A stretch of 33,250 bases of DNA from an uncultured Rikenellaceae bacterium (GCA_964515985.1 CAZEWS010000005.1:1-33250); one strand, 5' to 3'; positions 161-19,531 are shown, numbered from the stretch's first letter. Notes: a model not told the origin generated them from the letters alone. Numbers and translations are program-made.

Positions 161-1444
161 TCACCCGCCTGTAATTGAAGAAACCCTTACTGCCCGCCAC
201 GATGTCCTTCCTTTCTTCTTGTCAAAGGATGGCTTCAAATCGAAGTTCACAAGCTGCCCATTTTGTGTTCCATCTGGCAGGTCATCCTTACTGCAAAAGA
301 ATGATTCTTTTTCTCTTGTCTCAATAAAGCAAAAAGGTTTATTGGTGGTCCCAAGCTTAACTTTTCCTTTGAGGTTTCGCGTCTTTTGCTTTGGCGGCGG
401 TCCGTCATTTTCATCAACATTAGCCAGCCATGTTTTTTTACAAGTTTGGATACAATCGCTTGAAGTAGTGGGAAGGTCAACTTTTTGCTCTTTACTTTTC
501 AATTGCTCAATGATTTCAATCAATTCATCTGAAACAAACCATCCCTGCTCTTCTCTTATGCATCGAACTAGTTGGTAATGATAAAGCGCTTCCTTTGGTT
601 TTTGGGTTCGCAGCATTGCGTCAGCAAGGTCCCTAAACAAACTTACCTTGTTGGTTACCGGTCCGAGTGTAATAGCCGCTTTGAACATCGACTTCAAAGC
701 ATCTTCTTCCTTACCGTTCTTCAAAAGCACTTTAGCATATTCGTGCAACATCCACCAATCAACCCGTCCTTTCCTGGTCAGTTTATTATAGATTTCTTCT
801 CCAGCGGTGAAATTCTCTTGTGCAATACTCGCTTTCGCAACCAACCGTTCAAAGAACTTAGCCTTTCCCTTAAACTGGTCTTTAACTTGGTTTACAAGCT
901 CAATTCCTTCATTAAAGTTTCCATTCGCAATTAAGCCAGCCGACCGATAGTAATACCACAATTCCTTATTAGTCCAGTTGCCCTTTACAGCGCTTTCATC
1001 TTGTAATTGGTTAGGGTCAATTTTTATCAACCACTCGTTCATTATTTCCCAATCTCGATTTTTCTTAGCAACCTTAGCAACCTTAAACGCCACCATGTTG
1101 AAGGCGGTTAGCTCAGGATTCATTTCCAAGATATTGTTTGCAATGTCAGTGACAGTCAGGGTATCTATATCTTCCTCTAATCTATACAGTCTGCCAAAGA
1201 TGTTTGCCCAAATACACTCGTTCTTGCACCATTTGAAATCTGAATATTTTTCAAACACAACTTCCGAGAAGGCAAGTGCTTTATCGTGTTGTTTTATTTT
1301 GCGATAACAATGAAGTAATCCGGCTGCTGTGAACTTATCTTTTTTGGCCTCCCAAAGCTCCTCATACAGCTTGACTGCTTCTTCAAATTCCCCGCTTTTT
1401 CTAAGTTCGTTAGCTTCTGAACTCTTCTCTTGATTGGTTGCCAT
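161..1444 (-). CDS. TPR-like helical-repeat protein with a C-terminal cold-shock/OB-fold-like nucleic-acid-binding domain (last gene of the RnlA-like operon)
   Basis: 427-aa ORF. Its ATG overlaps the upstream stop (TAATG at 1444). The N-terminal ~330 aa are helical with TPR-like A/Y/W/L spacing. A Pro-rich linker (DENDGPPPKQK) follows. The C-terminus GKVKLG..KPFCFIE..FFCSKDDLPDG..GQLVNFDL..WRAVRV fits the CSD pattern GxVKxF..GFGFI..D.FvH..G..V.F. Confidence 0.7.
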   Translation of the reverse strand: MATNQEKSSEANELRKSGEFEEAVKLYEELWEAKKDKFTAAGLLHCYRKIKQHDKALAFSEVVFEKYSDFKWCKNECIWANIFGRLYRLEEDIDTLTVTDIANNILEMNPELTAFNMVAFKVAKVAKKNRDWEIMNEWLIKIDPNQLQDESAVKGNWTNKELWYYYRSAGLIANGNFNEGIELVNQVKDQFKGKAKFFERLVAKASIAQENFTAGEEIYNKLTRKGRVDWWMLHEYAKVLLKNGKEEDALKSMFKAAITLGPVTNKVSLFRDLADAMLRTQKPKEALYHYQLVRCIREEQGWFVSDELIEIIEQLKSKEQKVDLPTTSSDCIQTCKKTWLANVDENDGPPPKQKTRNLKGKVKLGTTNKPFCFIETREKESFFCSKDDLPDGTQNGQLVNFDLKPSFDKKKGRTSWRAVRVSSITGG

Positions 1445-2400
1445 TAGTCAAGTACTTGTACGGTGGTTTTAAAATGCATTTTAGCAACATTCGCCAACTG
1501 GTCTTGACCATGCTTTTCAACAAGCAGTTTTGCTTGCTCAACTACCTGTGGAGAGGCTCCTTTACTCAACTCCATTCCGTACTCTTCAGACAAATTCTTC
1601 ATTCTCTCAAGAAATCGTGCTCTTGCTAATATAGAAGCCGCAGCGACTGCAGTATGGCTCTCTGCTTTATGCTCTTGCGTAAGGTTTATTCTTCTGCCCT
1701 TTTCTTGCAACTTGCTCAGAATAAAACGTTCATCTGCAAACTTGTCCGACACCGCATTTTCGCAATCTACCTTTGTCAGAACTTCTTCAATGGCCTTAGC
1801 GTGCCCCCAAGCTAATAGCATGTTAAGATTTTTACCCTCGCGTTGAAATGTGTCATACAAATTGTTGTAGGTTGGTGGGGTTATTTCAATCACCGCATAT
1901 TGGTCATGGCAAATGTTACGTATCGTCCGCGCCAACTCCAATATTTTAGCGTCACTTATCTTCTTACTATCCCTGACACCAATTCTATCCAAAATAGTCT
2001 TAGTCCGAGCATCTACATACACTCCAGCAGCAACAAGTGGCCCAAAATAATCGCCCTTACCTGACTCATCTGTTCCAATGTTTGGTTTGAAGTTATCAAG
2101 TTTGTTTGCTTCGTGTCCATTAGCTCCTTGGTCTGGGGTGCTATCCTTGTGCCCTTCTAGTGCTTCAATGATGCGATGTTTTTTCTCATCCTCTTTAATA
2201 GGGGAGTAGTCATACTTTACTACCCCCTTTTTGTTGCGGTATATACGTATCAGTCCTTTCCAGCCACCTTCTGATATGCTGAATTGCACCCCGTAATCAA
2301 TCTCCTTGTAATCTCGCACGTTAAACCCAGCCTGCTCCAGTGCTGACTTGGAGGTTCCAAATATCTCTTGTAATATTTCCCTGTTGCTCATTTCCATCAT
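1444..2400 (-). CDS. rnhC: RNase HIII-like ribonuclease (TBP-like N-terminal domain + RNase HII/HIII catalytic domain)
   Basis: 318-aa ORF. The N-terminal ~85 aa (..VQFSISEGGWKGLIRIYRNKKGVV..) resemble the RNase HIII substrate-binding domain. GTDESGKGDYFGPLVAAGVYVD is the RNase HIII signature. SDKF and HKAESHTAVAAASILARARF complete a D-E-D-E set. The start overlaps the upstream stop by 1 nt (TAATG at 2400). Confidence 0.85.
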   Translation of the reverse strand: MMEMSNREILQEIFGTSKSALEQAGFNVRDYKEIDYGVQFSISEGGWKGLIRIYRNKKGVVKYDYSPIKEDEKKHRIIEALEGHKDSTPDQGANGHEANKLDNFKPNIGTDESGKGDYFGPLVAAGVYVDARTKTILDRIGVRDSKKISDAKILELARTIRNICHDQYAVIEITPPTYNNLYDTFQREGKNLNMLLAWGHAKAIEEVLTKVDCENAVSDKFADERFILSKLQEKGRRINLTQEHKAESHTAVAAASILARARFLERMKNLSEEYGMELSKGASPQVVEQAKLLVEKHGQDQLANVAKMHFKTTVQVLD

Positions 2401-3059
2401 TACGGATAAATCCCTCCAAATTCAGGCTCGTTAAAGTAGTCAAAGAGCTCCTTCGTGTTCTTTAAAATTTCGTCCAATTTGTCGCTGGCTTCCTCATGTG
2501 TATTTACTTTGGTTACAGTGCTACTGTCACTGTGCATCATAAAGTTTCTGGTCATATCGAGTGCAACAGATAGCTTATCGATATAACTTCCAGCATACTT
2601 TTCCTTCACGATTAAAGCAGTTCGCCTGGAATAGGTTTTATCCTTTAGATTGGTGAAGCCATCTTCCTTTCTGCTAAAATGTGTCGGTGGGTAAAATCCA
2701 ACCGCTAACAAAAGCTTTTTTGCAAACCCCTCAAAAGCCTTAGACGCTGGCATTACTACTGGTGAGTATTCAGGCAGCGGAATTCCGGCAATACGCAGAC
2801 ATTCTGCTGCAACAAACCACTTTTGGTCATGGGGTTCAAGGAACTTGTATGCATCCTGCAATACTCCCATGATGTTGTTCTCTGCAGTTTCAAGAAGTAG
2901 AGGCGTACATGAAGCAGTGAACTTCTCCAGCACTTCCTCATCATGGGAAATAAAACGGATTATGACCTCTTGCTCACTTGGAGTGCCTATTTTTTCGATG
3001 ATGTCACATACATCGTTAAAGAGCTTGTCTTCTTTACCTTGCAAAAAAGAGTGTCCCAT
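2400..3059 (-). CDS. HEPN-domain RNase, C-terminal (Dmd-binding-domain-like) part of a frameshift-split RnlA/LsoA-like toxin
   Basis: 219-aa ORF. Rx4H HEPN motif TRNFMMH (R171..H176) lies in a helical C-terminal region. The N-terminus MGHSFLQGKEDK continues the TBP-like motif of the upstream ORF in the +1 frame. It overlaps ORF 3034..3504 by 26 nt. Confidence 0.7.
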   Translation of the reverse strand: MGHSFLQGKEDKLFNDVCDIIEKIGTPSEQEVIIRFISHDEEVLEKFTASCTPLLLETAENNIMGVLQDAYKFLEPHDQKWFVAAECLRIAGIPLPEYSPVVMPASKAFEGFAKKLLLAVGFYPPTHFSRKEDGFTNLKDKTYSRRTALIVKEKYAGSYIDKLSVALDMTRNFMMHSDSSTVTKVNTHEEASDKLDEILKNTKELFDYFNEPEFGGIYP

Positions 3060-3504
3060 TGTTGAATTGTGTTACTGTTAGCGAGTATTCTGCTCTGATT
3101 ATCTTTGCTCGGTATTCTTGATGTGCAGCAGGGTTTTCTTCTATAGTGAGCGTTCCATAAATATCGTTGAGTTCATTCTTAATGGCTTCCTTTACTTTGT
3201 CGACAATTATCATATACTTCTGTGCGCATGACTTGACTTTAAGCTCCTCGATTTGTCTGAGAATCTCAGGCGAATCGGTCACTTTGGTTTTTAACTCATC
3301 GAACTCTTTCTTCAGTTGAAGCTTGGGACTACCTCCAGGCACGAACTTTCCTGTGTGGTAGAGCATGAGTGATATTTTTTCATAACCATTGGAGATTTCA
3401 TACTTCACGTAACCGTTCTGCTGAGTTTTGTTTACCTGATATTTTTTATCTTGACAGTATTTGTCAAGATAGTCTTCGATGAGATTTGCATGTCCTTCAG
3501 CCAT
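3034..3504 (-). CDS. N-terminal part of the RnlA/LsoA-like toxin: two tandem TBP-like (RNase HIII N-domain-like) repeats
   Basis: 156-aa ORF. YVKYEISNGYEKISLMLYHTGKF parallels VQFSISEGGWKGLIRIYRNKKGV of the neighbouring RNase HIII. The second repeat ends ..SLTVTQFNNGTLFFAR*, truncated inside the expected NGTLxxQGK motif. Confidence 0.7.
   Translation of the reverse strand: MAEGHANLIEDYLDKYCQDKKYQVNKTQQNGYVKYEISNGYEKISLMLYHTGKFVPGGSPKLQLKKEFDELKTKVTDSPEILRQIEELKVKSCAQKYMIIVDKVKEAIKNELNDIYGTLTIEENPAAHQEYRAKIIRAEYSLTVTQFNNGTLFFAR
3043..3048 (-). other. Homopolymer tract (A6 on the plus strand, T6 in the mRNA sense) at the frame junction of the split RnlA-like gene
   Basis: Sense strand reads AAT GGG ACA CTC TTT TTT GCA AGG TAA. 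Removing one T gives ..NGTLFLQGKEDKLF.. and fuses both ORFs into one ~370-aa reading frame. Confidence 0.8.
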
Positions 3505-3943
3505 GATTATTGTAATTAGGTATAAACAATAAATTTACAAAAATTATTCCTTTCATTTCTATTGACTTAAATAATGTAGTCTATATGACGTATTGACAGA
3601 GAGACAATCCTTAACTATGTTCTGATGAAAGCAAATTTTAATTATACAAGCATTGCCCGCAACTTGTTTATAAGGTGAATAAACTTCACATTCATACTCC
3701 GATATTTCCGGATAAGAGGAAGTTTGTTCCACTTTATTACAAATATAATCAAAAATCCATGTCCAAAAAAGGACTATTTATACTTAAATACTTGTTCTTT
3801 TATCTTACAGTTTACCCCGTTGGAAATTCCGAAATTCCTTCGGGGTTTATCTGGGTTAGGTATTTAGATCCCGAATAACTTCTGCCTGCCATAGGCATCC
3901 CTATGGGAAAAGGCATCGCTTTGTGAGCTTTCGGGATAAATTA

Positions 3944-4034
3944 TTACTCACTACGTTCGTGAGATCACTTCGTTAAGTTCCCTTGGGGATGAGATCGGTT
4001 ACTCACTTGGTTCGTGAGAACGCTTCGCTTAGTT
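3944..4034. repeat. Two ~36-bp direct repeats (ttactcacNNNgttcgtgagaNc(a/g)cttcg(t/c)ttagtt), each containing a ctcac/gtgag mini-hairpin
   Basis: Copy 1 is at about 3944-3979 and copy 2 at about 3999-4034. A related inverted copy is at about 19249-19268. Confidence 0.7.
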
Positions 4035-4122
4035 TACTAAGTTCGACTAACAGCCTAGTCCAACGAGCAAAATAAGGAGATCCCGATGAACTCATTCTGA
4101 GTTATCGGGATAAGTTCAACTA

Positions 4123-4159
4123 TAAGATTTTACTGCGCCAAACAGCTTGTAAAATCTTA
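4123..4159 (-). terminator. Hairpin immediately downstream of the mnmE stop (taagattttac / gtaaaatctta, 11-bp stem)
   Basis: Perfect inverted repeat 8 nt past the mnmE stop codon. No clear U-run follows on the minus strand. Confidence 0.35.
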
Positions 4160-4166
4160 GTTTCAC

Positions 4167-5835: not shown

Positions 5836-7680
5836 TCAGCGGTTAACAGGCATATTGGAATAATTCCGGATTTTCATATTAGCTGTAATCTTTTCAACCG
5901 GTAAGGTAATCATAGACTCGGCGTAAATCTCTGCGAGGTCCTTTACAGGATAAAGACCGGCCATTTGGAAAGTCTTTTTACATAACGGACAACTGGTTGT
6001 TAGTTGTTGAGTATCATTTGTTACAATTTGCTCAATGGTTTCCCGGGCAATTTGCCTCTTTTCTTCGACATCCAGTTCCAGGTCAGCAAGGCTTCCACCG
6101 CAACATAAACCATCCCCAGGAGTGTAATCTTTGTTTTGTAAATAAACCAGTAAGTCCAGCACATTTCTCGGTTCACTGTAAATTCCCAGATCGCGTCCCA
6201 GTTCACAGGGATCATGATAAACAGTTTTTATTCCGTTTTGTTGAGGAATAAATCTTCCTTCTTTTATCAGGGAATTCAGATACTGGGAATGATGAACCAC
6301 AGGCACCTGGTAATAGTAATCATTTTTAAAGGTATTCAGACAAATCGGGCAGGTGGTAACGATTAATGCCGGATTACAATTCAGTATCTTACTCCGTGTT
6401 CTGTTCGAAATTTCCCTGAATGCTTCATATTGTCCTGATAACAGTAAAGGCCGGCCACAACATATGGCCTCATATTCATCAATAAAAATAAAATCTTCTC
6501 CGGTAAGCATAAAAATTTTCTTCATTGCTTCCGTGATCGCCGGGGTTAACCGTGTCAAACATCCGCCAAAAAAAACAATTTTTGATGGAAATGCCGGCCA
6601 TGAAGCCTCATCCAGATATGAGAAATCATAATTCATTTTTCCGTTTATCCTGTTCCTTTCGTTCATTCTTATTGAAAGTGTGTCTACCTGAACCGGGCAA
6701 ACCTGTTTACAACGTCCGCACATCAAACAATTCATAACTGAATTTTCTTTGGGTTTTTTCCCGTTCCGGAGATTTCTGAGGAAATATAACGATTGTCCCA
6801 TTAAGCCGGTTTTAACATTCATTTGACAGGCATCAAGGCATATTCCACATAAAGAACATGCATGTACCTGGAAATTGGTGATGCCGTCATCATGAAGAGC
6901 TTCTATATTGGCATTTTTAAAGAAAATATGCGGTATTTCGGTAAAGATATGCATGTAGCGGGAGAAGGGGAGAAGAATAAAAAATCCTCCCAGAACACTG
7001 GAATAAAACAACCATGCGGCATCTGAAAGGAAATAATAATTTTCCGGAAGATAAATCAGATTACCAAGAAAACCCGTAAAGAAACCACCCCCACCATAAA
7101 CGGTATGATTGAGTGATTCTGCTATCAGCCTGGCCGGGAAAACAAGCCATAAAAAAGCCAGTGCTGTTTTATCCGTACTGCTGTGATTTGCTGTTTTACT
7201 GACACCAAGGAGTTTTGCATTGAACCTTTTATAAATTGCAAGGAAAAGTCCTGATAAAATAAAAATCAAAAGGATATCCATGATATAATTAAACCCGATA
7301 TCCAGCCATCCGGTTTCCAAATATCCCCTTACATAAAAATCAAGGAATATTGCTTTAGATGGAGAGGAAAGAAATGTGCCTGTTTTACAGATGGTTTCAA
7401 GTTGCCCTGCCAATATGAGAAGAAACCACCCGAAAGCCAGGCTCGTATGCATATACCACAGTCGCCGGTTAACCTTAAATATTCTCATGTGTAGCAGGCA
7501 TTCCCTGAATACTTCAGCAAGTGAATCCACTAACCATTTTATTGACAGAGCTTTCTTTAGCCTTACTTTGTTTCTGATACGTAATGTCATGAACCAACGG
7601 GTATAACTGATTATCAATGATATAATCAGAAAAATCAATCCGATTGTGAACGGGATGACGAAAAATGATTCCATATCCAT
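5836..7680 (-). CDS. Membrane-anchored Fe-S oxidoreductase, HdrE/NarI-like TM domain fused to an HdrD/DsrK-like domain (2x[4Fe-4S] + two CCG domains)
   Basis: 614 aa. About 6 N-terminal TM helices. CSLCGICLDAC and CLMCGRCKQVCP ferredoxin motifs. CCGRP and CCGGS cysteine-rich (CCG) motifs. The start overlaps the upstream stop by 1 nt. Confidence 0.75.
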   Translation of the reverse strand: MDMESFFVIPFTIGLIFLIISLIISYTRWFMTLRIRNKVRLKKALSIKWLVDSLAEVFRECLLHMRIFKVNRRLWYMHTSLAFGWFLLILAGQLETICKTGTFLSSPSKAIFLDFYVRGYLETGWLDIGFNYIMDILLIFILSGLFLAIYKRFNAKLLGVSKTANHSSTDKTALAFLWLVFPARLIAESLNHTVYGGGGFFTGFLGNLIYLPENYYFLSDAAWLFYSSVLGGFFILLPFSRYMHIFTEIPHIFFKNANIEALHDDGITNFQVHACSLCGICLDACQMNVKTGLMGQSLYFLRNLRNGKKPKENSVMNCLMCGRCKQVCPVQVDTLSIRMNERNRINGKMNYDFSYLDEASWPAFPSKIVFFGGCLTRLTPAITEAMKKIFMLTGEDFIFIDEYEAICCGRPLLLSGQYEAFREISNRTRSKILNCNPALIVTTCPICLNTFKNDYYYQVPVVHHSQYLNSLIKEGRFIPQQNGIKTVYHDPCELGRDLGIYSEPRNVLDLLVYLQNKDYTPGDGLCCGGSLADLELDVEEKRQIARETIEQIVTNDTQQLTTSCPLCKKTFQMAGLYPVKDLAEIYAESMITLPVEKITANMKIRNYSNMPVNR

Positions 7681-8087
7681 CAGGTTTTGTATATTTCAAA
7701 TATTCTTTTCATTTCTACAATCGCTTTTCTCGTATTAACTCCCCTGGGGCATACCAACCAGCATTTACCACAATACTGACAGTATTTCAATCCTCTTTTC
7801 AGATTTACATACAAGCCGGTTTTTAAATAGAGATGTAATTTTCTGAACCCCATTCCGGTTTTTTCAGATGAATTACAGGTAGCGGTGCATGAACCGCATG
7901 AAATGCATAATGATAAGGAAGGGACCCTTTCTATCATTTCCTTGTAATCAACATTTGGTCGGTCCTGGTCAAGCAACTGATCTTTATGAATTTTGAAGCC
8001 AAAATCTATCATGCTGATCCTGATTTTCAGATATAAAAGAATTTCTAAGAAAATGATGTACCTCAAATGCAACCCTTGATGCTTCAT
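7680..8087 (-). CDS. Small 4Fe-4S dicluster ferredoxin (HdrC-like)
   Basis: CISCGSCTATCNS and CQYCGKCWLVCPRG motifs. The track start at 8087 overlaps the HdrA-like gene by 104 nt. The internal Met (MIDFGFK, about 8012) is the more plausible start. Confidence 0.65.
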   Translation of the reverse strand: MKHQGLHLRYIIFLEILLYLKIRISMIDFGFKIHKDQLLDQDRPNVDYKEMIERVPSLSLCISCGSCTATCNSSEKTGMGFRKLHLYLKTGLYVNLKRGLKYCQYCGKCWLVCPRGVNTRKAIVEMKRIFEIYKT

Positions 8088-9063
8088 TCATCGATTCTGT
8101 AATATTTTTTGGCCCTGTGCAGGCACCTGCAAAGAATAATCCATTTTTTAAAGGGTTTAATGAAAAATCAATTTTACCCGTCCCAAAAAATCCATCGGTC
8201 CCGGTCTGTTCATTTATTAACGGGCATATCTGGCTTACGGATTTATCAAGCTGCATGCCAATCAATAATACTATCATATCCACCGTCATTTTAGCCGGTT
8301 TTCCTGCAAGCGTATCTTCGTATCTTATTACCAATGAACCGTCAACATCTTCATTTGTTTCAGAGAGTCTCCCGCGTATAAATTGTATTTTGTGGCACAT
8401 CTGTGCCATCTTATAATTGTCTTCATAAAATCGTCCGTTCAGTCTCAGGTCCATATACAGGCAACTGACCTGGATTTCGGGAATCCTTTTCCTGAGTTCC
8501 ATAGCTTGTTTAATCCCGGTGATACAACATACCGATGAGCAATATTCACTTCCAACCTTAATGTCTCTCGATCCCACACAATGAATCATTGCGACTTTGC
8601 CCGGAACCTTTCCATTTGTCATTGTAATGTAATTATTTTTAAATTTATCTTCCAGTTCAACAGAAGTAATTACGTTATCATATATCCCATAGCCGTATTC
8701 TTCCTTTCTCCCGGCATTAAAAGGATTAAAACCTGTTGATATAAAAAGAGCAGGGCTTGTGTAGATAGTTTGGTTCTGATCTGCTACTGTAAATCCTTCA
8801 GGACTTTTTGTAATTGTTTCGATTTGTACCGATGTCATTAAGTTTTTTTTCTGATCTTTCAGCAATGGATTAAGAATCTCCATAGCAGATTCATTATGTG
8901 GGAAAAGTGTGTTCCATAGCAATAGTTTTCCTCCCGGATGATCCTCCTTTTCCAGGATATATATTTTATAGCCCAGTGACTGCAGAATTGTGCCTGCTTT
9001 CAATCCTGCCGGACCGGCTCCAATAATAATACAATCAGCTTCTGTTCTTTTCATATTTTTCAA
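7984..9063 (-). CDS. HdrA-like FAD-dependent oxidoreductase (short HdrA/QmoA type)
   Basis: 359 aa. GAGPAGLKAG dinucleotide fold. CVGSRD..YCSSVCC motif typical of the HdrA Fe-S site. 4-nt overlap with the upstream gene. Confidence 0.75.
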   Translation of the reverse strand: MKNMKRTEADCIIIGAGPAGLKAGTILQSLGYKIYILEKEDHPGGKLLLWNTLFPHNESAMEILNPLLKDQKKNLMTSVQIETITKSPEGFTVADQNQTIYTSPALFISTGFNPFNAGRKEEYGYGIYDNVITSVELEDKFKNNYITMTNGKVPGKVAMIHCVGSRDIKVGSEYCSSVCCITGIKQAMELRKRIPEIQVSCLYMDLRLNGRFYEDNYKMAQMCHKIQFIRGRLSETNEDVDGSLVIRYEDTLAGKPAKMTVDMIVLLIGMQLDKSVSQICPLINEQTGTDGFFGTGKIDFSLNPLKNGLFFAGACTGPKNITESMNEASRVAFEVHHFLRNSFISENQDQHDRFWLQNS

Positions 9064-10130
9064 TAAACTTTTAGCAAATCGGGTATTTGGGGTTTTGATA
9101 GTTGTTTGCCTGAAAATCCTATATATTTCAAAGCCGGATCGTAATCCACACCCATTTTTTCCAATAATGGTTCGACCGCCACCTGGTGCATTTGTAATCC
9201 CAGGTCCCAGGGATCATATCCGAGGGCCAGGGCGGCAACTTCTTCGTATGTTAGAACAGGAATTCCATTACCTTCCTCACCATAAGTTTCTCTCTTCGTC
9301 TCACTGATGACATATTGCCATCGATCGAAGAAAAAATTACAGCCGGGACAATTGGTAACTATCAGGTCAGGTTTATAGGGTTCCATGGATTTCATTTTTC
9401 TGTATGTACAGGATAAGGAATACCCCCTGCTTGCCTTTACAATGTATTGTCTGAATCCAAATCCGCAACACATCCTTCTTTCCGGATAATCAATTACCTC
9501 ACCACCCAACGATTCTATAAGACCGGCAAGAACATAAGGATGTTCTGCTCCCCCGATCCCCTTCTCAGGGAACATTTTGGCATAGTGACAACCGATATGC
9601 TCAACCACCTGAAGTGGTTTTCCCGTATATTGATTTATAAGTTTGTATTGCGTTTTGGCTGCGATCTGACCCCTGAATTTAAAGATGATATCACTGGCAT
9701 GGACAAGATTTTCCGGTATTTTAAATTCTCTTCCTGTTGAACGGTACAGGTAATCACGTACCTGTTCCTCAATTTCCGGATGTTTCTCCCATATATCCAG
9801 GATTTCATTATACAAACCAAAGGAAGTAACACAGGAAATTACAAAATTGCGATATCCGGCTTCTGACATCAGGGCAAACTGCCTTGCAATCACTGTCATA
9901 GTTGTTTCAAGCTTTACCAGGTCAACATGATAACCGATCCCTGTACAGGTTGTATGATTGGGATCGTTGTACAAATCTTTTCCCAGATCGTTCCTTAATA
10001 TCCTGATGAATGCTTCTTCAGCACCGGGAAAGAAGTTTTGCCTGACACAACTCCTGACAAAAAAATATTGATCATCGGCAATATCTTTCTGATATTCATT
10101 CCAGAATACTTTTTTACCGTCAACTTTCAT
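9060..10130 (-). CDS. HdrB-like protein with CCG cysteine-rich domains
   Basis: 356 aa. RMCCGFGFR and NCPGCNFFFD motifs. Sits between the HdrC-like and HdrA-like genes with overlapping ends. Confidence 0.7.
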   Translation of the reverse strand: MKVDGKKVFWNEYQKDIADDQYFFVRSCVRQNFFPGAEEAFIRILRNDLGKDLYNDPNHTTCTGIGYHVDLVKLETTMTVIARQFALMSEAGYRNFVISCVTSFGLYNEILDIWEKHPEIEEQVRDYLYRSTGREFKIPENLVHASDIIFKFRGQIAAKTQYKLINQYTGKPLQVVEHIGCHYAKMFPEKGIGGAEHPYVLAGLIESLGGEVIDYPERRMCCGFGFRQYIVKASRGYSLSCTYRKMKSMEPYKPDLIVTNCPGCNFFFDRWQYVISETKRETYGEEGNGIPVLTYEEVAALALGYDPWDLGLQMHQVAVEPLLEKMGVDYDPALKYIGFSGKQLSKPQIPDLLKVY

Positions 10131-10827
10131 CCTCAGGCTGGTTTTTGGAATACATTAACTGGAAATATTCATTCCAGATCGTATCATCATACTCCAGATT
10201 TAGTTTTTTCGCACATTTAGCTGCATCGTTCTCTAATTTTTCAAACCGGTCAGTGCAGCCGGTGATATTAAAAATCGTTTTAAGTTCATTCATGCTCGTT
10301 TTTGAAATTTTCCTGAGTGGACCGTTGCCAGGCTTGTTATATGAATTGCCGAAGAGATTATATATTTCACTGCTGTTTTTTCTTATCCAGTCCCAAACGG
10401 GGCCCTGTTCCGGGAATAAACCGGTATCCACACTATCGGCATGAACACAATAACCGGTAGCCAGAATTGTATCCCCGATAAGCTTCTTTAAAACATACAT
10501 CTGCTTTCCCCTGTGGGAGTGCAGGTACAATCCTGTTTCAATGGAAAGGTTTCGAAGTGCCAATATTAACAATCCGGGGGTATTACCCCGGGGACATCTG
10601 GTTTTACATGACATACACTGTCCGCAATACCATATTTTTTCACCTTTCAGAAGTTCCTCAAGTATTTTCTCATCCTCAACCTGAAGAGCATCGGCAATTT
10701 CCCTTGGGTCGTAATCATAAAAGGAAGCGGCTGGACAAATGGCTGTGCAGGTACCGCAATTAATACACGCTTCCAGTCCTTCACTGAACCGGACATCTTG
10801 TTGTAAACGTTCAAATAACTTTCCCAC
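10120..10827 (-). CDS. HdrC-like 4Fe-4S dicluster protein (apparent GTG start)
   Basis: 235 aa. CINCGTCTAICPA and CGQCMSCKTRCPRG motifs. First gene of the hdr-like operon. Confidence 0.7.
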   Translation of the reverse strand: MGKLFERLQQDVRFSEGLEACINCGTCTAICPAASFYDYDPREIADALQVEDEKILEELLKGEKIWYCGQCMSCKTRCPRGNTPGLLILALRNLSIETGLYLHSHRGKQMYVLKKLIGDTILATGYCVHADSVDTGLFPEQGPVWDWIRKNSSEIYNLFGNSYNKPGNGPLRKISKTSMNELKTIFNITGCTDRFEKLENDAAKCAKKLNLEYDDTIWNEYFQLMYSKNQPEDES

Positions 10828-10910
10828 TTATCCAAAATTTTTACTAAAATAACAAGCATTTAAACAATGGGAAAGCCCTTAAATACTTATTTTTTTCCAG
10901 AAATACGGGA

Positions 10911-10936
10911 TGGTATAAAGTGGTATAGATGGTAAG
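10911..10936. promoter_or_regulatory. Three helically phased direct repeats TGGTATA / TGGTATA / TGGTAAG (about 10-bp period) upstream of the hdr-like operon
   Basis: Repeats start at about 10911, 10921 and 10930. They lie in the 134-bp gap between the response-regulator stop and the HdrC-like start. Confidence 0.35.
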
Positions 10937-10961
10937 TATTTATACTACTATATAAAGATCA

Positions 10962-11606
10962 CTAAATCTCAATAAGTTTGTTTTCAACGGCATACATGAC
11001 CAGACTTGCCGTGTTGTGTGTATTTGTCTTATCAAGGATGTTTGCCCTGTGCTTATCAACTGTCCTCTTGCTTATATTAAGTTCATCGGCGATCTCCAGG
11101 TTGGAATACCCCTTACATATCAAGGCAAGGATCTCATTCTCCCTGGTCGATAAATGAACTTCGGTGGTTTTATCCTTATTGATCTCTTTAATACTCTTAA
11201 CTACATTATATAAAACTTCCTGGCTGAAAAATGTTCCTCCGTTATGCACAGTTTTAATCGCTTTGACCACTTCATCAATACCGGAAGTTTTCAGGATAAA
11301 TCCTTTTGCTCCTGCCTCGATCATTTTCAAATAATATTCTTCTTCACCGTACATGGATAGTGTAATGATCTTAAGGTCGGGATACATCTGAATGGCTAAA
11401 CGGGATGCTTCAATTCCATTCATTACCGGCATTTCAATATCCATCAACACTACATCAGGGGTAGTCTTTTGCAACAATTTACAAAACTCTTTTCCGTTTT
11501 CAGCTTCGCCTGTTATCTCTATTTCTTTTTCCCCTTTCAGTAAAGTAGACAGACCATTTCTGAATAATTTATGATCATCCACCAAAACAACTTTAACCTT
11601 TTTCAT
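10962..11606 (-). CDS. NarL/FixJ-family response regulator (REC + LuxR-type HTH)
   Basis: 214 aa. VVLVDDH..DVVLMDIEMP receiver domain. C-terminal LSTRENEILALICKGYSNLEIADELNISKRTVDKHR. Confidence 0.9.
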   Translation of the reverse strand: MKKVKVVLVDDHKLFRNGLSTLLKGEKEIEITGEAENGKEFCKLLQKTTPDVVLMDIEMPVMNGIEASRLAIQMYPDLKIITLSMYGEEEYYLKMIEAGAKGFILKTSGIDEVVKAIKTVHNGGTFFSQEVLYNVVKSIKEINKDKTTEVHLSTRENEILALICKGYSNLEIADELNISKRTVDKHRANILDKTNTHNTASLVMYAVENKLIEI

Positions 11607-12610
11607 TTTCTTATATCTTTAAGCTTGAGAACAATTTCAGCTTCCATTCCACTTCCCGGTATACTTTCCACCGAGAAACGGCCGTTAACCGATTGCAGCC
11701 TTGAATGTATGTTATTGAAACCCGATCCGGTTGATCCGTCCTTTTCCAATATTTTCGGATCAAATCCCTTACCATCGTCCTTATAATGAATTAGCATCAT
11801 ATCTTCGGTTTTAAAAATCTTTAAGATAGCATTACTTGCCTCAGCATGACGAATAGTATTGTTAATAAGTTCACAAATAGCACGAAACAAGATTATTTCG
11901 ACTTCCGTTTGAAAACGTTCTTTGTTGAGATTGGAACTGAAATGTATCCTGATCCTGCCGGCATAATTGATCCTGTTTACAAATGTACGCAGCATCGATT
12001 CAAGTCCGAAATTACTCAGTATATGCGGACTGAGATTTTCTGAAATTTCTTTCAGACCGTTGATCGCTTCTTCAATAAGTTCGGAGGTATTGTTAATTAT
12101 ATTGCTAACCTTTTCAGTAAGCTCACTTTTCTGTAGTGCAGAAAAAGACATTTTTACTGTGGATAATATAGGCCCTAACCCGTCATGCATATCTTTAGCA
12201 AACCGTTTACGTTCTTTTTCTTCTGTCTGAATTATCGCATTTAATACCCTTCTTTCGGATAATTTTCTGATCTTATCAGCTTCCTTAAGAGATTTAAATA
12301 TCTTTTTAATAAATATAATACTCACCGTTATCAGAACGGACGTACCAATACCTGTCCATGAACTGAGCATAGAGAGGTCTTTTGAGTATGTCGGGAACAT
12401 ATAGGGCAGAAATTCAATTAGTCTGCGAATGGCGGTCAAAAAAAGTGCTATGGAAATCAATATCCACGAGAGATTATATTTTGTCAACTTAGTGAGACTA
12501 ATCGCTATAAAAGCAGCCACAAACTGCAGAATAAAAGAAACGATCAAACCGTAAAATGTTGCCATGATTTTAATTTTAGTTGATTGATTACTTAAAACAA
12601 AGATAAACAA
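11603..12610 (-). CDS. Membrane sensor histidine kinase (HisKA_3 + HATPase_c), with no obvious periplasmic domain
   Basis: 335 aa. H-box FAKDMHDGLGPIL, N/G boxes ELINNTIRHA, DDGKGFD, GSGFNNI. 3-4 closely spaced TM helices. The likely true start is MATFYG at about 12565. 4-nt overlap with the RR gene. Confidence 0.85.
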   Translation of the reverse strand: MFIFVLSNQSTKIKIMATFYGLIVSFILQFVAAFIAISLTKLTKYNLSWILISIALFLTAIRRLIEFLPYMFPTYSKDLSMLSSWTGIGTSVLITVSIIFIKKIFKSLKEADKIRKLSERRVLNAIIQTEEKERKRFAKDMHDGLGPILSTVKMSFSALQKSELTEKVSNIINNTSELIEEAINGLKEISENLSPHILSNFGLESMLRTFVNRINYAGRIRIHFSSNLNKERFQTEVEIILFRAICELINNTIRHAEASNAILKIFKTEDMMLIHYKDDGKGFDPKILEKDGSTGSGFNNIHSRLQSVNGRFSVESIPGSGMEAEIVLKLKDIRK

Positions 12611-18558: not shown

Positions 18559-18632
18559 GCCACTTTAGCTCAGATGGTCAGAGCGGTTGTTTCGTAAACA
18601 ACAGGTCACGGGTTCGATTCCCGTAGGTGGCT
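18559..18632 (+). tRNA. tRNA-Thr (anticodon CGT)
   Basis: Hand-folded cloverleaf: acceptor gccactt/aggtggc, D arm gctc..gagc, anticodon arm gttgt-ttCGTaa-acaac, T arm acggg-ttcgatt-cccgt. No encoded CCA. Coordinates +/-1. Confidence 0.85.
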
Positions 18633-18664
18633 CAAATTTAAATCGTTTTCCAAACTGATAAGTT

Positions 18665-18964
18665 TTGTTTTGGGTCTATATTTTATATTCTGTGTCAATT
18701 AACCAATTTTATAAAGGGCAGACCAATAATTTGGGGAACAGGGTATTACGACATAATAGTGAATTTGAAAAGGCGACAAAATCGGGTATTCCCTGGATTC
18801 TGGTTTGGTCAGCTTTAAAGAGTGATCGGTCTTCGGCTACGGTTCTTGAAAGGAAGTTAAAAAATCTTACACGGAACCGCTTAATTGATTTTATGAAAAA
18901 GTATTCTGAAGGCGTCGCCGGTCCTGACGAATTTCTCCTGTTGGAGAAATTGTCAGGATGCTGA
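18665..18964 (+). CDS. Small stand-alone GIY-YIG nuclease family protein (non-ATG start)
   Basis: 99 aa. WVYILYS..NQFYKGQTNNLGNRVLRHN matches the GIY-YIG core (YVYIL..YIGxT.dL..Rl..Hn). Lies between two tRNA genes. Confidence 0.8.
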   Translation: MFWVYILYSVSINQFYKGQTNNLGNRVLRHNSEFEKATKSGIPWILVWSALKSDRSSATVLERKLKNLTRNRLIDFMKKYSEGVAGPDEFLLLEKLSGC

Positions 18965-18980
18965 CCGTAAGCGTCAGCAT
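18958..18980 (+). other. 8-bp perfect hairpin (atgctgac-cgtaagc-gtcagcat) spanning the GIY-YIG stop codon
   Basis: Inverted repeat read directly. The TGA stop lies in the 5' arm. Confidence 0.6.
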
Positions 18981-19455
18981 TCAAGTCCGATGGGAGGCTC
19001 TAAGTAAAGGATGAGTGATGATTGTTGGATAGATGCCGGATATAAGGAAAGTGGCAGTAGCAGCCTGTCCGGCTACTGACGGATAGCAGGGATAAGTCTC
19101 CAGTCAACAGTCAACAGTCTCCAACTGAACTGAAAACTGAAAACTATAAACCAAAAACCATTTAATGTAGAGCCGAATTGTATTCGGCTAGAAAATAGAC
19201 CTTGCACCGTTTGAGAGGGGAATAACCTGCCAGCGTCTGACAACCATTTCACGAACAAAGTGAGTGAAATGTCTCACGAGCAGGTTTGAGCGAAGGACAG
19301 AGGGAGTGAGTAAACCTGGCAGTGTTTGAGAATGGGATAAGTCGCTAGCCTACCCTGTTAAATACGCTATGCCGTATTTTATAATTTAACAGGGTCTGCT
19401 CTATGCTTTCTTTTTTTTTAAATTGTCAATTTTCTTATTTTTGTCGTCTTATTTT

Positions 19456-19527
19456 GCGGGAGTAGCTCAGTGGTAGAGCATCAGCTTCCCAAGCTGAGGG
19501 TCGCGGGTTCGATCCCCGTTTCCCGCT
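19456..19527 (+). tRNA. tRNA-Gly (anticodon CCC)
   Basis: Acceptor gcgggag/ttcccgc, D arm gctc-agtggta-gagc, anticodon arm tcagc-ttCCCaa-gctga, T arm gcggg-ttcgatc-cccgt. Confidence 0.9.
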
Positions 19528-19531
19528 CAAA

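What the first reader, a model, noticed from the sequence alone, without database searches (positions are those of the whole stretch)
3034..3059. RnlA-like gene is split by a 1-nt frameshift in a T6 run; removing one T restores a canonical NGTLFLQGK motif
ORF 3034..3504 ends ..TVTQFNNGTLFFAR*. ORF 2400..3059 starts MGHSFLQGKEDK in the +1 frame. The sense strand reads AAT GGG ACA CTC TTT TTT GCA AGG TAA. Deleting one T from the T6 run yields ..SLTVTQFNNGTLFLQGKEDKLF... That recreates the (S/N)G(K/T)(V/L)xxQGK ending typical of RNase HIII-type TBP-like domains and makes one continuous ORF. Possible explanations are a homopolymer sequencing error, an inactivated toxin (pseudogene), slipped-strand phase variation that switches a toxic RNase ON and OFF, or +1 ribosomal frameshifting.
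Basis: seen in the sequence. Interest (0 to 1): 0.7.

Follow-up and report, generated by a model that had tools for sequence, protein, structure and literature searches.

The report
Frameshifted RnlA-like RNase in defence operon
One extra T in a short T-run splits an otherwise perfectly conserved RnlA-like RNase gene, the first gene of a three-gene predicted defence operon; this is most likely an ordinary recent inactivating mutation (less likely an assembly error), not a programmed switch.

Summary
On the minus strand, ORF 3504..3034 (156 aa) and ORF 3059..2400 (219 aa, +1 frame) overlap at a T6 run (3043-3048). Removing one T gives a 367-aa protein that aligns end to end with several hundred single-ORF homologues of about 361-372 aa and restores the near-invariant NGTLxLQGK strand. 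A high-confidence model matches E. coli RnlA over its full length (TBP1-TBP2-HEPN).

The gene is not part of an RnlAB toxin-antitoxin pair. It heads a conserved operon: RnlA-like, then RNase HIII-like, then TPR-S1/CSD. This architecture fits the predicted "TOTE" conflict systems.

- Orthologues have no frameshift and no conserved homopolymer at this site.
- No frameshift-stimulating signals were found.
- T6 is short for phase variation.
- The repaired protein keeps 81 of 81 highly conserved positions, so the lesion is recent or artefactual.
- Exact-protein look-ups imply a second NCBI contig with both split ORFs, and no intact allele of this lineage is on record.
- Another 76 coding homopolymers of 6 nt or more in the window sit in long uninterrupted ORFs.

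Verdict: most likely a real, recent T5-to-T6 insertion that inactivates the HEPN effector. Assembly error is the main rival. Low interest.

The parts
3034..3504 (-). N-terminal fragment ORF (156 aa) of the RnlA-like gene. It holds TBP-like domain 1 and most of TBP-like domain 2, and ends with the aberrant residues FAR* after the frameshift.
   Evidence: The model has strands and helices for residues 2-157. Foldseek matches RnlA TBP1/TBP2.
3043..3048 (-). T6 homopolymer carrying the 1-nt insertion. The inferred ancestral reading is CTC TTT TTG (T5). The run lies inside the last beta-strand (residues 151-157) of TBP2.
2400..3059 (-). C-terminal fragment ORF (219 aa from an ATG in the +1 frame; NCBI called 214 aa from TTG). 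It holds the end of TBP2 plus the complete HEPN RNase domain.
   Evidence: (P0009). Pfam RnlA-toxin_DBD scores E 1.1e-5. Colinear with E. coli RnlA residues 205-269.
2532..2549 (-). HEPN Rx4H catalytic motif, R319-N-F-M-M-H324 in repaired numbering. It is intact.
   Evidence: R319, F321 and H324 are invariant and N320, M322 and M323 are at least 90% conserved in 51 sequences. They correspond to E. coli RnlA R318/H323 (PMC8266594).
1444..2400 (-). RNase HIII-like gene (318 aa). Its start overlaps the rnlA-like stop as TAATG. The predicted catalytic residues D111, E112, D219 and E247 are conserved.
   Evidence: TIGR00716 rnhC E 3.6e-61, above cut-off. PF01351 E 1e-35. Bst RNase HIII 2d0a E 1.4e-26. 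Invariant residues in 24 homologues.
161..1444 (-). TPR protein with a C-terminal S1/cold-shock-like beta domain (427 aa), the predicted sensor or scaffold. Its start overlaps the RNase HIII-like stop as TAATG.
   Evidence: PADLOC PDLC01170 'TPR fused to cold shock-like OB-fold' E 1.7e-25. TPR models, DUF7017 and a sub-threshold S1CSD-TOTE-2 hit. Five-strand beta domain at residues 358-424 in a low-confidence model. TAATG overlap.

Best explanation
A genuine, evolutionarily very recent single-T insertion (T5 to T6, the usual replication-slippage indel at a short homopolymer) has frameshifted the first gene of a three-gene, TOTE-like predicted defence operon: RnlA-like TBP1-TBP2-HEPN RNase, then RNase HIII-like, then TPR-S1/CSD.

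**Consequences.** Translation from the native start stops three codons after the run. The result is a 156-aa TBP-only fragment that lacks the end of TBP2. The HEPN domain could be made only by internal initiation, at the fortuitous +1-frame ATG created by the conserved Asn-Gly codons or at the TTG. It would then lack the TBP domains. In E. coli RnlA, TBP1 is needed for RNA binding and activity. So the HEPN effector is most likely lost or strongly reduced, and the translationally coupled downstream genes may be down-regulated.

**Shown:** the lesion, the repaired protein's family and fold, the operon, the absence of the shift in orthologues, and the absence of other decay.

**Inferred:** that the extra T is in the DNA rather than the assembly, that the fragments are inactive, and that the operon is a defence system.
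For: - **The lesion and its repair.**. 374 homologues; the 120 listed are single ORFs apart from the window's own fragment. NGTLxLQGK and the HEPN motif are conserved.
- **Fold.** The AF2 model has pLDDT 88, and Foldseek's best match is E. coli RnlA over the full length.
- **Recent event.** The repaired protein matches 81 of 81 columns that are at least 90% conserved in 50 homologues. That is the joint best score in the alignment.
- **Against a generally error-prone assembly.** 76 other homopolymers of 6 nt or more lie in long uninterrupted ORFs in this window, including 14 runs of 7 nt and 6 runs of 8 nt. The intergenic gaps hold tRNAs and small ribosomal-protein genes, not broken genes.
- **Reproducibility.** The exact 156-aa ORF ending LFFAR is recorded on two contigs. 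The exact 219-aa ORF is recorded on an NCBI contig of 3918 bp. No intact 367-aa allele closer than 82% identity turned up in the search of the roughly 15-billion-protein collection.
- **Base rate.** 3 of 68 metagenomic homologues (L052, L053, L054) carry unrelated frameshifts, two of them at A-runs.
- **Function of the missing domains.** E. coli RnlA lacking TBP1 is inactive, with about 100-fold weaker substrate binding (PMC8266594).
- **Translational coupling.** TAATG overlaps join all three genes.
Against: - No reads could be inspected.
- The DNA of the second contig could not be retrieved, and it is unknown whether it is independent of the window's assembly.
- The complete lack of any other decay fits an assembly error equally well.
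- The only other sequence of this population, JGI contig L002 (99.9% identical), stops 460 nt short of the site.
- Two scans of JGI metagenome contigs found no conspecific sequence over the T-run.
- Inactivity of the fragments is inferred from a homologue only about 15% identical.
Confidence: 0.6

Rival explanations
1. Sequencing or assembly artefact: the real genome has T5 and an intact 367-aa gene, and the extra T is a consensus error at a homopolymer.
For: The gene is otherwise pristine, with 81 of 81 conserved positions and an intact HEPN motif. The lesion sits in a homopolymer, the classic error site. The record is evidently an uncultured-organism contig; its nearest relatives are MAGs. 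One broken gene among 77 coding runs of 6 nt or more would fit an error rate of about 1% per run.
Against: All 20 coding runs of 7-8 nt sit in uninterrupted ORFs, and length-dependent homopolymer error would hit those first. The same two split ORFs are recorded on a second NCBI contig of 3918 bp, and no intact allele of this lineage was found. The fragmented contigs suggest short-read assembly (inference), where T6 consensus indels are rare.
Confidence: 0.22
2. Slipped-strand phase variation: the T tract toggles between T5 (ON) and T6 (OFF) in the population, switching a costly HEPN effector.
For: The lesion is in a homopolymer and is reversible by a single slippage event. Both halves stay perfectly conserved. 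Defence effectors are plausible targets for ON/OFF control (inference).
Against: The tract is only 5-6 nt, whereas known contingency tracts are usually 7-8 nt or longer (established knowledge). 57 other 6-nt runs occur in genes of this window, so the tract is unremarkable. Relatives carry runs of 2-5 nt, mostly 3, at this site, so there is no selected mutable tract. The two records implied by the look-ups are both T6, and no T5 allele was found.
Confidence: 0.07
3. Recoding: +1 ribosomal frameshifting at TTT TTT G, or transcriptional slippage on U6, yields some full-length RnlA-like protein from the T6 allele.
For: A +1 slip of tRNA-Phe from the first TTT would give exactly ...LFLQGK.... The zero-frame stop lies only two codons downstream.
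Against: The shift is absent from every orthologue examined. There is no hungry codon: AGG is the commonest Arg codon, at 12.3 per 1000. TTT TTT occurs in frame six times in other genes. The downstream RNA fold is no better than shuffles, z -0.6. The stop is not at the shift site as in prfB, and a 6-nt run is short for efficient transcriptional slippage (established knowledge).
Confidence: 0.03
4. Functional split: the two ORFs are expressed as separate TBP and HEPN polypeptides that still work together in the operon.
For: The C-terminal ORF has its own ATG or TTG close to the upstream stop and holds a complete HEPN domain. Downstream genes are intact.
Against: The break lies inside the last beta-strand of TBP2, not at a domain boundary. 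The +1-frame ATG is a by-product of the conserved AAT GGN codons found in most relatives. None of the 84 related loci has a two-gene arrangement at this point. E. coli RnlA without TBP1 is inactive.
Confidence: 0.05

Closest known systems
E. coli RnlA (RNase LS) and LsoA HEPN toxins (PDB 4i8o, 6y2p, 7aex, 5hy3; Pfam PF15935, PF19034)
   Same: Same length of about 360 aa and the same colinear TBP1-TBP2-HEPN architecture. The HEPN Rx4H motif (R319/H324 versus R318/H323) and E258 are conserved. Foldseek gives E 4e-10 over about 370 columns, and TM 0.70 to the TBP2-HEPN fragment. The TBP2 strand ends ...LQGK here and ...IQGRP in RnlA.
   Different: Only about 15% sequence identity, and the Pfam scores of the window protein fall just under the gathering cut-offs. 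There is K255 in place of R255. There is no RnlB antitoxin gene. The partner genes are an RNase HIII-like gene and a TPR-S1/CSD gene. The copy in this window is frameshifted.
TOTE (TPR, OB, TBP, Effector) conflict systems, predicted by Aravind, Iyer and Burroughs 2022 (as cited in PMC12458937; Pfam PF22721 TBP-TOTE, PF22707 S1CSD-TOTE-2)
   Same: A TPR protein fused to a cold-shock/S1-like OB domain, TBP-like domains, and nuclease effectors including RNase H-type domains, all in one operon. That operon is conserved across bacteria and archaea and is sometimes next to restriction or abortive-infection genes.
   Different: Hits to the TOTE-specific Pfam models are below threshold: S1CSD-TOTE-2 in 10 of 22 homologues with best E 1.3e-4, and TBP-TOTE in 1 of 24 at the 0.01 cut-off. 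The original description could not be read here. Whether this exact RnlA/RNase HIII variant is listed there is unknown. I found no experimental test of any TOTE system.
Housekeeping RNase HIII (rnhC; Bst RNase HIII 2d0a, Aquifex 3vn5)
   Same: The downstream gene passes the TIGR00716 cut-off and keeps the residues that align with the catalytic motifs of Bst RNase HIII.
   Different: It is always encoded between an RnlA-like gene and a TPR-S1/CSD gene, in a variable region. Its N-terminal approximately 100 residues do not align to the rnhC model.
prfB-type programmed +1 frameshifting and homopolymer contingency loci
   Same: Two overlapping ORFs in the 0 and +1 frames at a homopolymer.
   Different: The shift is not conserved, there is no stop or rare codon at the shift site, there are no stimulators, and the tract is short and not conserved.

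Membership tests
RnlA/LsoA (RNase LS) HEPN RNase family | Three-domain TBP1-TBP2-HEPN fold | tested here: met
   AF2 model pLDDT 88. The Foldseek top 10 are all RnlA/LsoA, with 4i8o at E 4e-10 and 370 columns; TBPs come next.
RnlA/LsoA (RNase LS) HEPN RNase family | HEPN Rx4-6H motif and catalytic residues (RnlA R255, E258, R318, H323) | tested here: met
   R319, H324, E258 and K255 are invariant in 51 sequences. K replaces R255. Residue roles are taken from PMC8266594.
RnlA/LsoA (RNase LS) HEPN RNase family | Pfam PF15935 / PF19034 at or above the gathering score | tested here: inconclusive
   The repaired window protein scores 26.2 and 18.6 bits against a cut-off of 27. Most homologues carry precomputed PF15935 and/or PF19034 hits. 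A profile search against PDB gives RnlA at E 0.006-0.01.
RnlA/LsoA (RNase LS) HEPN RNase family | Adjacent RnlB-type antitoxin gene (type II TA pair) | tested here: not met
   The next gene overlaps as TAATG and is a 318-aa RNase HIII-like protein. The same arrangement is seen wherever related contigs are long enough.
RnlA/LsoA (RNase LS) HEPN RNase family | Uninterrupted reading frame | tested here: not met
   T6 frameshift at 3043-3048.
TOTE (TPR, OB, TBP, Effector) conflict systems | TPR protein | tested here: met
   TPR_14, TPR_19 and DUF7017 in 22 of 22 homologues. Foldseek hits are all TPR proteins.
TOTE (TPR, OB, TBP, Effector) conflict systems | OB (S1/cold-shock) domain fused to the TPR protein | tested here: inconclusive
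   PADLOC profile 'TPR fused to cold shock-like OB-fold' at E 1.7e-25 over the full length. Pfam S1CSD-TOTE-2 is sub-threshold, E 0.0029 here and present in 10 of 22 homologues. hhalign to CspA gives E 0.004 but probability 9%. There is a five-strand beta domain at 358-424 in a low-confidence single-sequence model.
TOTE (TPR, OB, TBP, Effector) conflict systems | TBP-like domain(s) | tested here: met
   Two TBP-like domains in the RnlA-like protein (PMC8266594). The TBP-TOTE model hits the RNase HIII N-terminus only weakly, E 0.013.
TOTE (TPR, OB, TBP, Effector) conflict systems | Nuclease effector(s) in a conserved operon with the TPR-OB gene | tested here: met
   HEPN and RNase HIII-like genes precede the TPR gene wherever the related loci (84 fetched) extend far enough, in bacteria and archaea.
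TOTE (TPR, OB, TBP, Effector) conflict systems | Demonstrated role in defence or conflict | not testable with these tools
   Only context is available: EcoRII/Vsr/Dcm, RhuM, DUF3800 and Ymh-HEPN neighbours in some loci, housekeeping genes in others. The operon lies in a variable region next to mnmE.
Programmed +1 ribosomal frameshift (prfB-type) | Frameshift conserved in orthologues | tested here: not met
   The listed homologues are single ORFs. The 3 genuine frameshifts among 68 metagenomic loci lie at other sites.
Programmed +1 ribosomal frameshift (prfB-type) | Slow or stop codon at the shift site plus stimulatory elements | tested here: not met
   AGG is the commonest Arg codon. TTT TTT occurs in frame six times elsewhere. 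The downstream fold has z -0.6.
Homopolymer phase-variable (contingency) locus | Long tract, conserved in relatives | tested here: not met
   The tract is T6 (inferred ON state T5). Relatives have runs of 2-5 nt, mostly 3. 57 other 6-nt runs lie in genes of this window.
Homopolymer phase-variable (contingency) locus | Tract-length heterogeneity within the population | not testable with these tools
   No reads are available. The two records implied by the look-ups both encode the T6 products.

The most novel reading that the evidence does not exclude
The T5/T6 tract acts as a low-frequency reversible switch, or the T6 allele is decoded at low level by +1 slippage at TTT TTT G. Either would keep a self-toxic HEPN effector of an uncharacterised TOTE-like defence operon mostly OFF while preserving both halves under selection. 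This would explain why the gene shows no decay apart from the single extra T.
Probability: 0.08. Interest if true: 0.5.

Novelty: new member of a known kind. Interest (0 to 1): 0.2.

Why it matters
**For annotation.** The two ORFs should be merged and flagged as one frameshifted RnlA-family gene. 'Type II toxin' is misleading here, because there is no RnlB partner and the gene belongs to a three-gene operon.

**For biology.** The frameshift is an ordinary example of loss, or mis-assembly, of a potentially self-toxic defence effector.

**The more useful by-product** is the operon itself. RnlA-like HEPN RNase, RNase HIII-like and TPR-S1/CSD genes are strictly linked in Bacteroidota, Chloroflexota (Dehalococcoidia), Syntrophaceae, spirochaetes and methanogen/ANME archaea. 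I found no experimental work on this system. From my own knowledge and one cited title (Naka et al. 2017, listed in PMC8266594), E. coli RnlA/RnlB function depends on RNase HI. A hard-wired RnlA-RNase H partnership would therefore be a reasonable system to test.

Tried and rejected
**Looking for an independent sequence across the T-run.**
- An exact-pattern scan allowing T5-T7 found nothing in JGI metagenome contigs or IMG/VR.
- A protein-guided scan of metagenome contigs returned 68 relatives, all at most 57% identical.
- A GTDB representative-genome scan returned 14 relatives, at most 70% identical, and not the source genome.
- Exact-protein contig look-ups for both fragment ORFs, the TPR protein and MnmE found nothing retrievable.
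- Only the RNase HIII protein led to a conspecific JGI contig (L002). It ends 460 nt before the site.

**An apparent clustering of breaks that dissolved.** Three of six split homologues seemed to break near the same residue. On inspection, L060 and L062 are NN scaffold gaps, as is L064, which breaks elsewhere. L052 is a 1-nt deletion outside any homopolymer, six codons upstream.

**Other negatives and dead ends.**
- A Ty3-like +1 shift at GCA AGG T was considered and dropped, because AGG is not rare.
- Rfam found only two tRNAs in the window.
- A tblastn search of plasmids found no match, and there are no relatives in viral contigs.
- The Aravind 2022 TOTE review is not held.
The single-sequence model is low confidence, and its Foldseek hits are TPR proteins only.

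Full report
**1. The observation**

On the minus strand the sequence reads ...CAA TTC AAC AAT GGG ACA CTC TTT TTT GCA AGG TAA AGA....
- ORF 3504..3034 encodes 156 aa and ends NNGTLFFAR*.
- ORF 3059..2400 encodes 219 aa, starts MGHSFLQGKEDK, and lies in the +1 frame.
- The run is exactly six T, at window 3043-3048. Deleting one T gives a 367-aa ORF reading ...TQFNNGTLFLQGKEDKLF....

**2. The two ORFs are one gene**

- The repaired protein finds 374 proteins. Of the 120 best listed, all but one are single proteins of 361-384 aa, and the best is 82% identical at E 2e-193. The exception, P0009, is the 214-aa C-terminal fragment called on this very 33,250-bp NCBI contig.
- In a 51-sequence alignment the strand NGTL[LF]LQGK is almost fixed. 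Q146, L152, G156 and K157 are invariant; G150, T151 and Q155 are at least 90% conserved. The repaired reading matches the consensus on both sides of the junction.
- The closest relative (L001, 75% nucleotide identity) reads CTA TTT CTA CAG GGT AAA in frame.
- Among the fetched related loci, 70 gave a match. 64 give a single hit. Of the six split ones, three are NN scaffold gaps and three are unrelated frameshifts at other sites.

**3. What the gene is**

- Pfam gives sub-threshold hits to RnlA-toxin_DBD (E 1.1e-5) and RnlA_toxin (E 0.0023).
- A family profile hits E. coli RnlA colinearly, residues 205-269 in both proteins.
- An AlphaFold model built on the alignment has mean pLDDT 88. Its ten best PDB matches are all RnlA or LsoA. 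4i8o scores E 4e-10 over about 370 columns. The TBP2-HEPN fragment 7aex gives TM 0.70. TATA-binding proteins follow.
- The HEPN motif R319-N-F-M-M-H324 and E258 are conserved. These correspond to RnlA R318, H323 and E258. K255 replaces R255 (PMC8266594).

The protein therefore has the RnlA architecture TBP1-TBP2-HEPN. The frameshift lies inside the last beta-strand of TBP2 (residues 151-157), not at a domain boundary.

**4. Context: not a toxin-antitoxin pair**

- The next gene (2400..1444) overlaps the stop as TAATG. It is RNase HIII-like: TIGR00716 E 3.6e-61, above cut-off, and Bst RNase HIII 2d0a E 1.4e-26. D111, E112, D219 and E247 are invariant in 24 homologues.
- The third gene (1444..161) is again joined by TAATG. 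It is a TPR protein with a C-terminal S1/cold-shock-like beta domain.
  - PADLOC 'TPR fused to cold shock-like OB-fold', E 1.7e-25.
  - Pfam TPR models, DUF7017, and a sub-threshold S1CSD-TOTE-2 hit.
  - A five-strand beta domain in a low-confidence model.
- The same three-gene order recurs in every related locus long enough to show it. These include Flavobacteriaceae, Gilvibacter, Reichenbachiella, Syntrophaceae, Dehalococcoidia, Spirochaetia and Methanosarcinales/ANME genomes.
[quoted passage not shown] The TOTE-specific Pfam models are hit only below threshold, and the original paper could not be read.
- Some loci sit beside restriction or abortive-infection genes: EcoRII/Vsr/Dcm, RhuM, DUF3800 and Ymh-HEPN. 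Others sit beside housekeeping genes.
- In this window the operon lies at the contig end. A relative with about 93% nucleotide identity (GCA_030605195.1) is syntenic through mnmE, diverges at about window 3650, and begins a different gene whose first 20 residues looked integrase-like to me (not tested). The operon is therefore accessory.

**5. What the frameshift is**

Four lines of evidence bear on this.

(a) It is lineage-specific. No orthologue has it, and the site carries runs of only 2-5 identical bases in relatives, mostly 3. This argues against an evolved recoding site or a selected mutable tract.

(b) There are no recoding signals. AGG is the commonest Arg codon here. TTT TTT occurs in frame six times in other genes of the window. 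The downstream RNA folds no better than shuffles, z -0.6.

(c) There is no other decay. The repaired protein matches 81 of 81 columns that are at least 90% conserved in the other 50 sequences. The lesion is therefore very young, or reversible, or not real.

(d) On artefact versus mutation:
- The window holds 77 homopolymers of 6 nt or more inside its long ORFs, including 14 of 7 nt and 6 of 8 nt. Only this one interrupts an ORF. Full length of the other genes was not checked against homologues.
- The large intergenic gaps contain tRNAs and small ribosomal-protein genes, not broken genes. Length-dependent homopolymer error is thus not evident.
- The exact 156-aa product ending LFFAR is recorded on two contigs. 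The exact 219-aa product is recorded on an NCBI contig of 3,918 bp. The search of the roughly 15-billion-protein collection returned no intact allele closer than 82%.
- I could not retrieve that second contig or establish its independence. No conspecific metagenome contig covers the site.

**6. Most likely mechanism**

A replication-slippage insertion changed T5 to T6 and truncates the protein after TBP2 strand residue 153, adding FAR.
- The HEPN domain could be made only from the +1-frame ATG or TTG. That ATG is simply a by-product of the conserved AAT-GGN (Asn-Gly) codons.
- E. coli RnlA lacking TBP1 is inactive and binds substrate about 100-fold more weakly. By analogy, the HEPN effector is probably lost.
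- All three genes are coupled by TAATG overlaps, so premature termination may also lower expression of the RNase HIII-like and TPR genes (inference).
- Three of 68 metagenomic homologues carry other frameshifts, two at A-runs. Disrupted copies of this effector are therefore not rare.

**7. Verdict**

| Explanation | Probability |
|---|---|
| Genuine recent inactivating mutation | about 0.6 |
| Assembly error | about 0.2 |
| Phase variation, recoding or functional split, together | about 0.15 |

This is a routine frameshifted member of a known family inside a known, though experimentally untested, class of operon. Interest is low. The operon itself is the more worthwhile subject.

Noticed in passing
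window 161-3504 (minus strand); L001, L003-L084: The RnlA-like, RNase HIII-like and TPR-S1/CSD genes form a strictly conserved three-gene operon found in Bacteroidota, Dehalococcoidia, Syntrophaceae, Spirochaetia and methanogen/ANME archaea. It appears to be a TOTE-type system. I found no experimental characterisation of it.
   Followed up: partly
window 2400-2404 and 1444-1448: Both gene junctions of the operon are TAATG stop/start overlaps. This implies translational coupling and a possible polar effect of the upstream frameshift.
   Followed up: partly
window 2452 (L002 position 130): The only nucleotide difference between the window and the 99.9%-identical JGI contig (metagenome 3300008517) is nonsynonymous in the C-terminal RnlA-like ORF: K351M in repaired numbering. 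The 957-nt RNase HIII-like gene has no difference. With one event this is not significant, but it would fit relaxed constraint.
   Followed up: partly
window about 3650-4166; L085 9400-10176: Synteny with a relative of about 93% nucleotide identity (GCA_030605195.1) runs through mnmE and stops at about window 3650. The relative instead begins a gene (MKKKSLRNRMISEMQIRNYS...) that looked integrase-like to me but was not tested. The mnmE-proximal site seems to be a variable insertion hotspot.
   Followed up: partly
L053 1630-1660; L054 4770-4790; L052 590-610: Three metagenomic homologues of the RnlA-like gene carry their own 1-nt frameshifts: one at an A7 run, one at an A5 run where A6 is expected, and one non-homopolymer deletion. 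L060, L062 and L064 are merely NN scaffold gaps.
   Followed up: yes
window 18559-19528: tRNA-Thr(CGT) and tRNA-Gly(CCC) flank a 99-aa ORF (18665-18964, + strand) that looks GIY-YIG-like by eye. Part of this spacer (about 19051-19192) has short matches elsewhere in the relative's contig.
   Followed up: no
window 5836-12610: A cluster of Fe-S/CCG-domain and pyridine-nucleotide-disulfide oxidoreductase genes (heterodisulfide-reductase-like by my reading) followed by a HisKA_3/GerE two-component pair, judged from Pfam labels on the syntenic relative L085. The 104-bp overlap of ORFs 7680-8087 and 7984-9063 is probably an over-extended TTG start.
   Followed up: no
L001 350-4174: In the closest relative, the operon sits directly beside an EcoRII-like endonuclease, Vsr and a DNA cytosine methylase, plus a LexA-like repressor. 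This is a defence-island-like context.
   Followed up: partly
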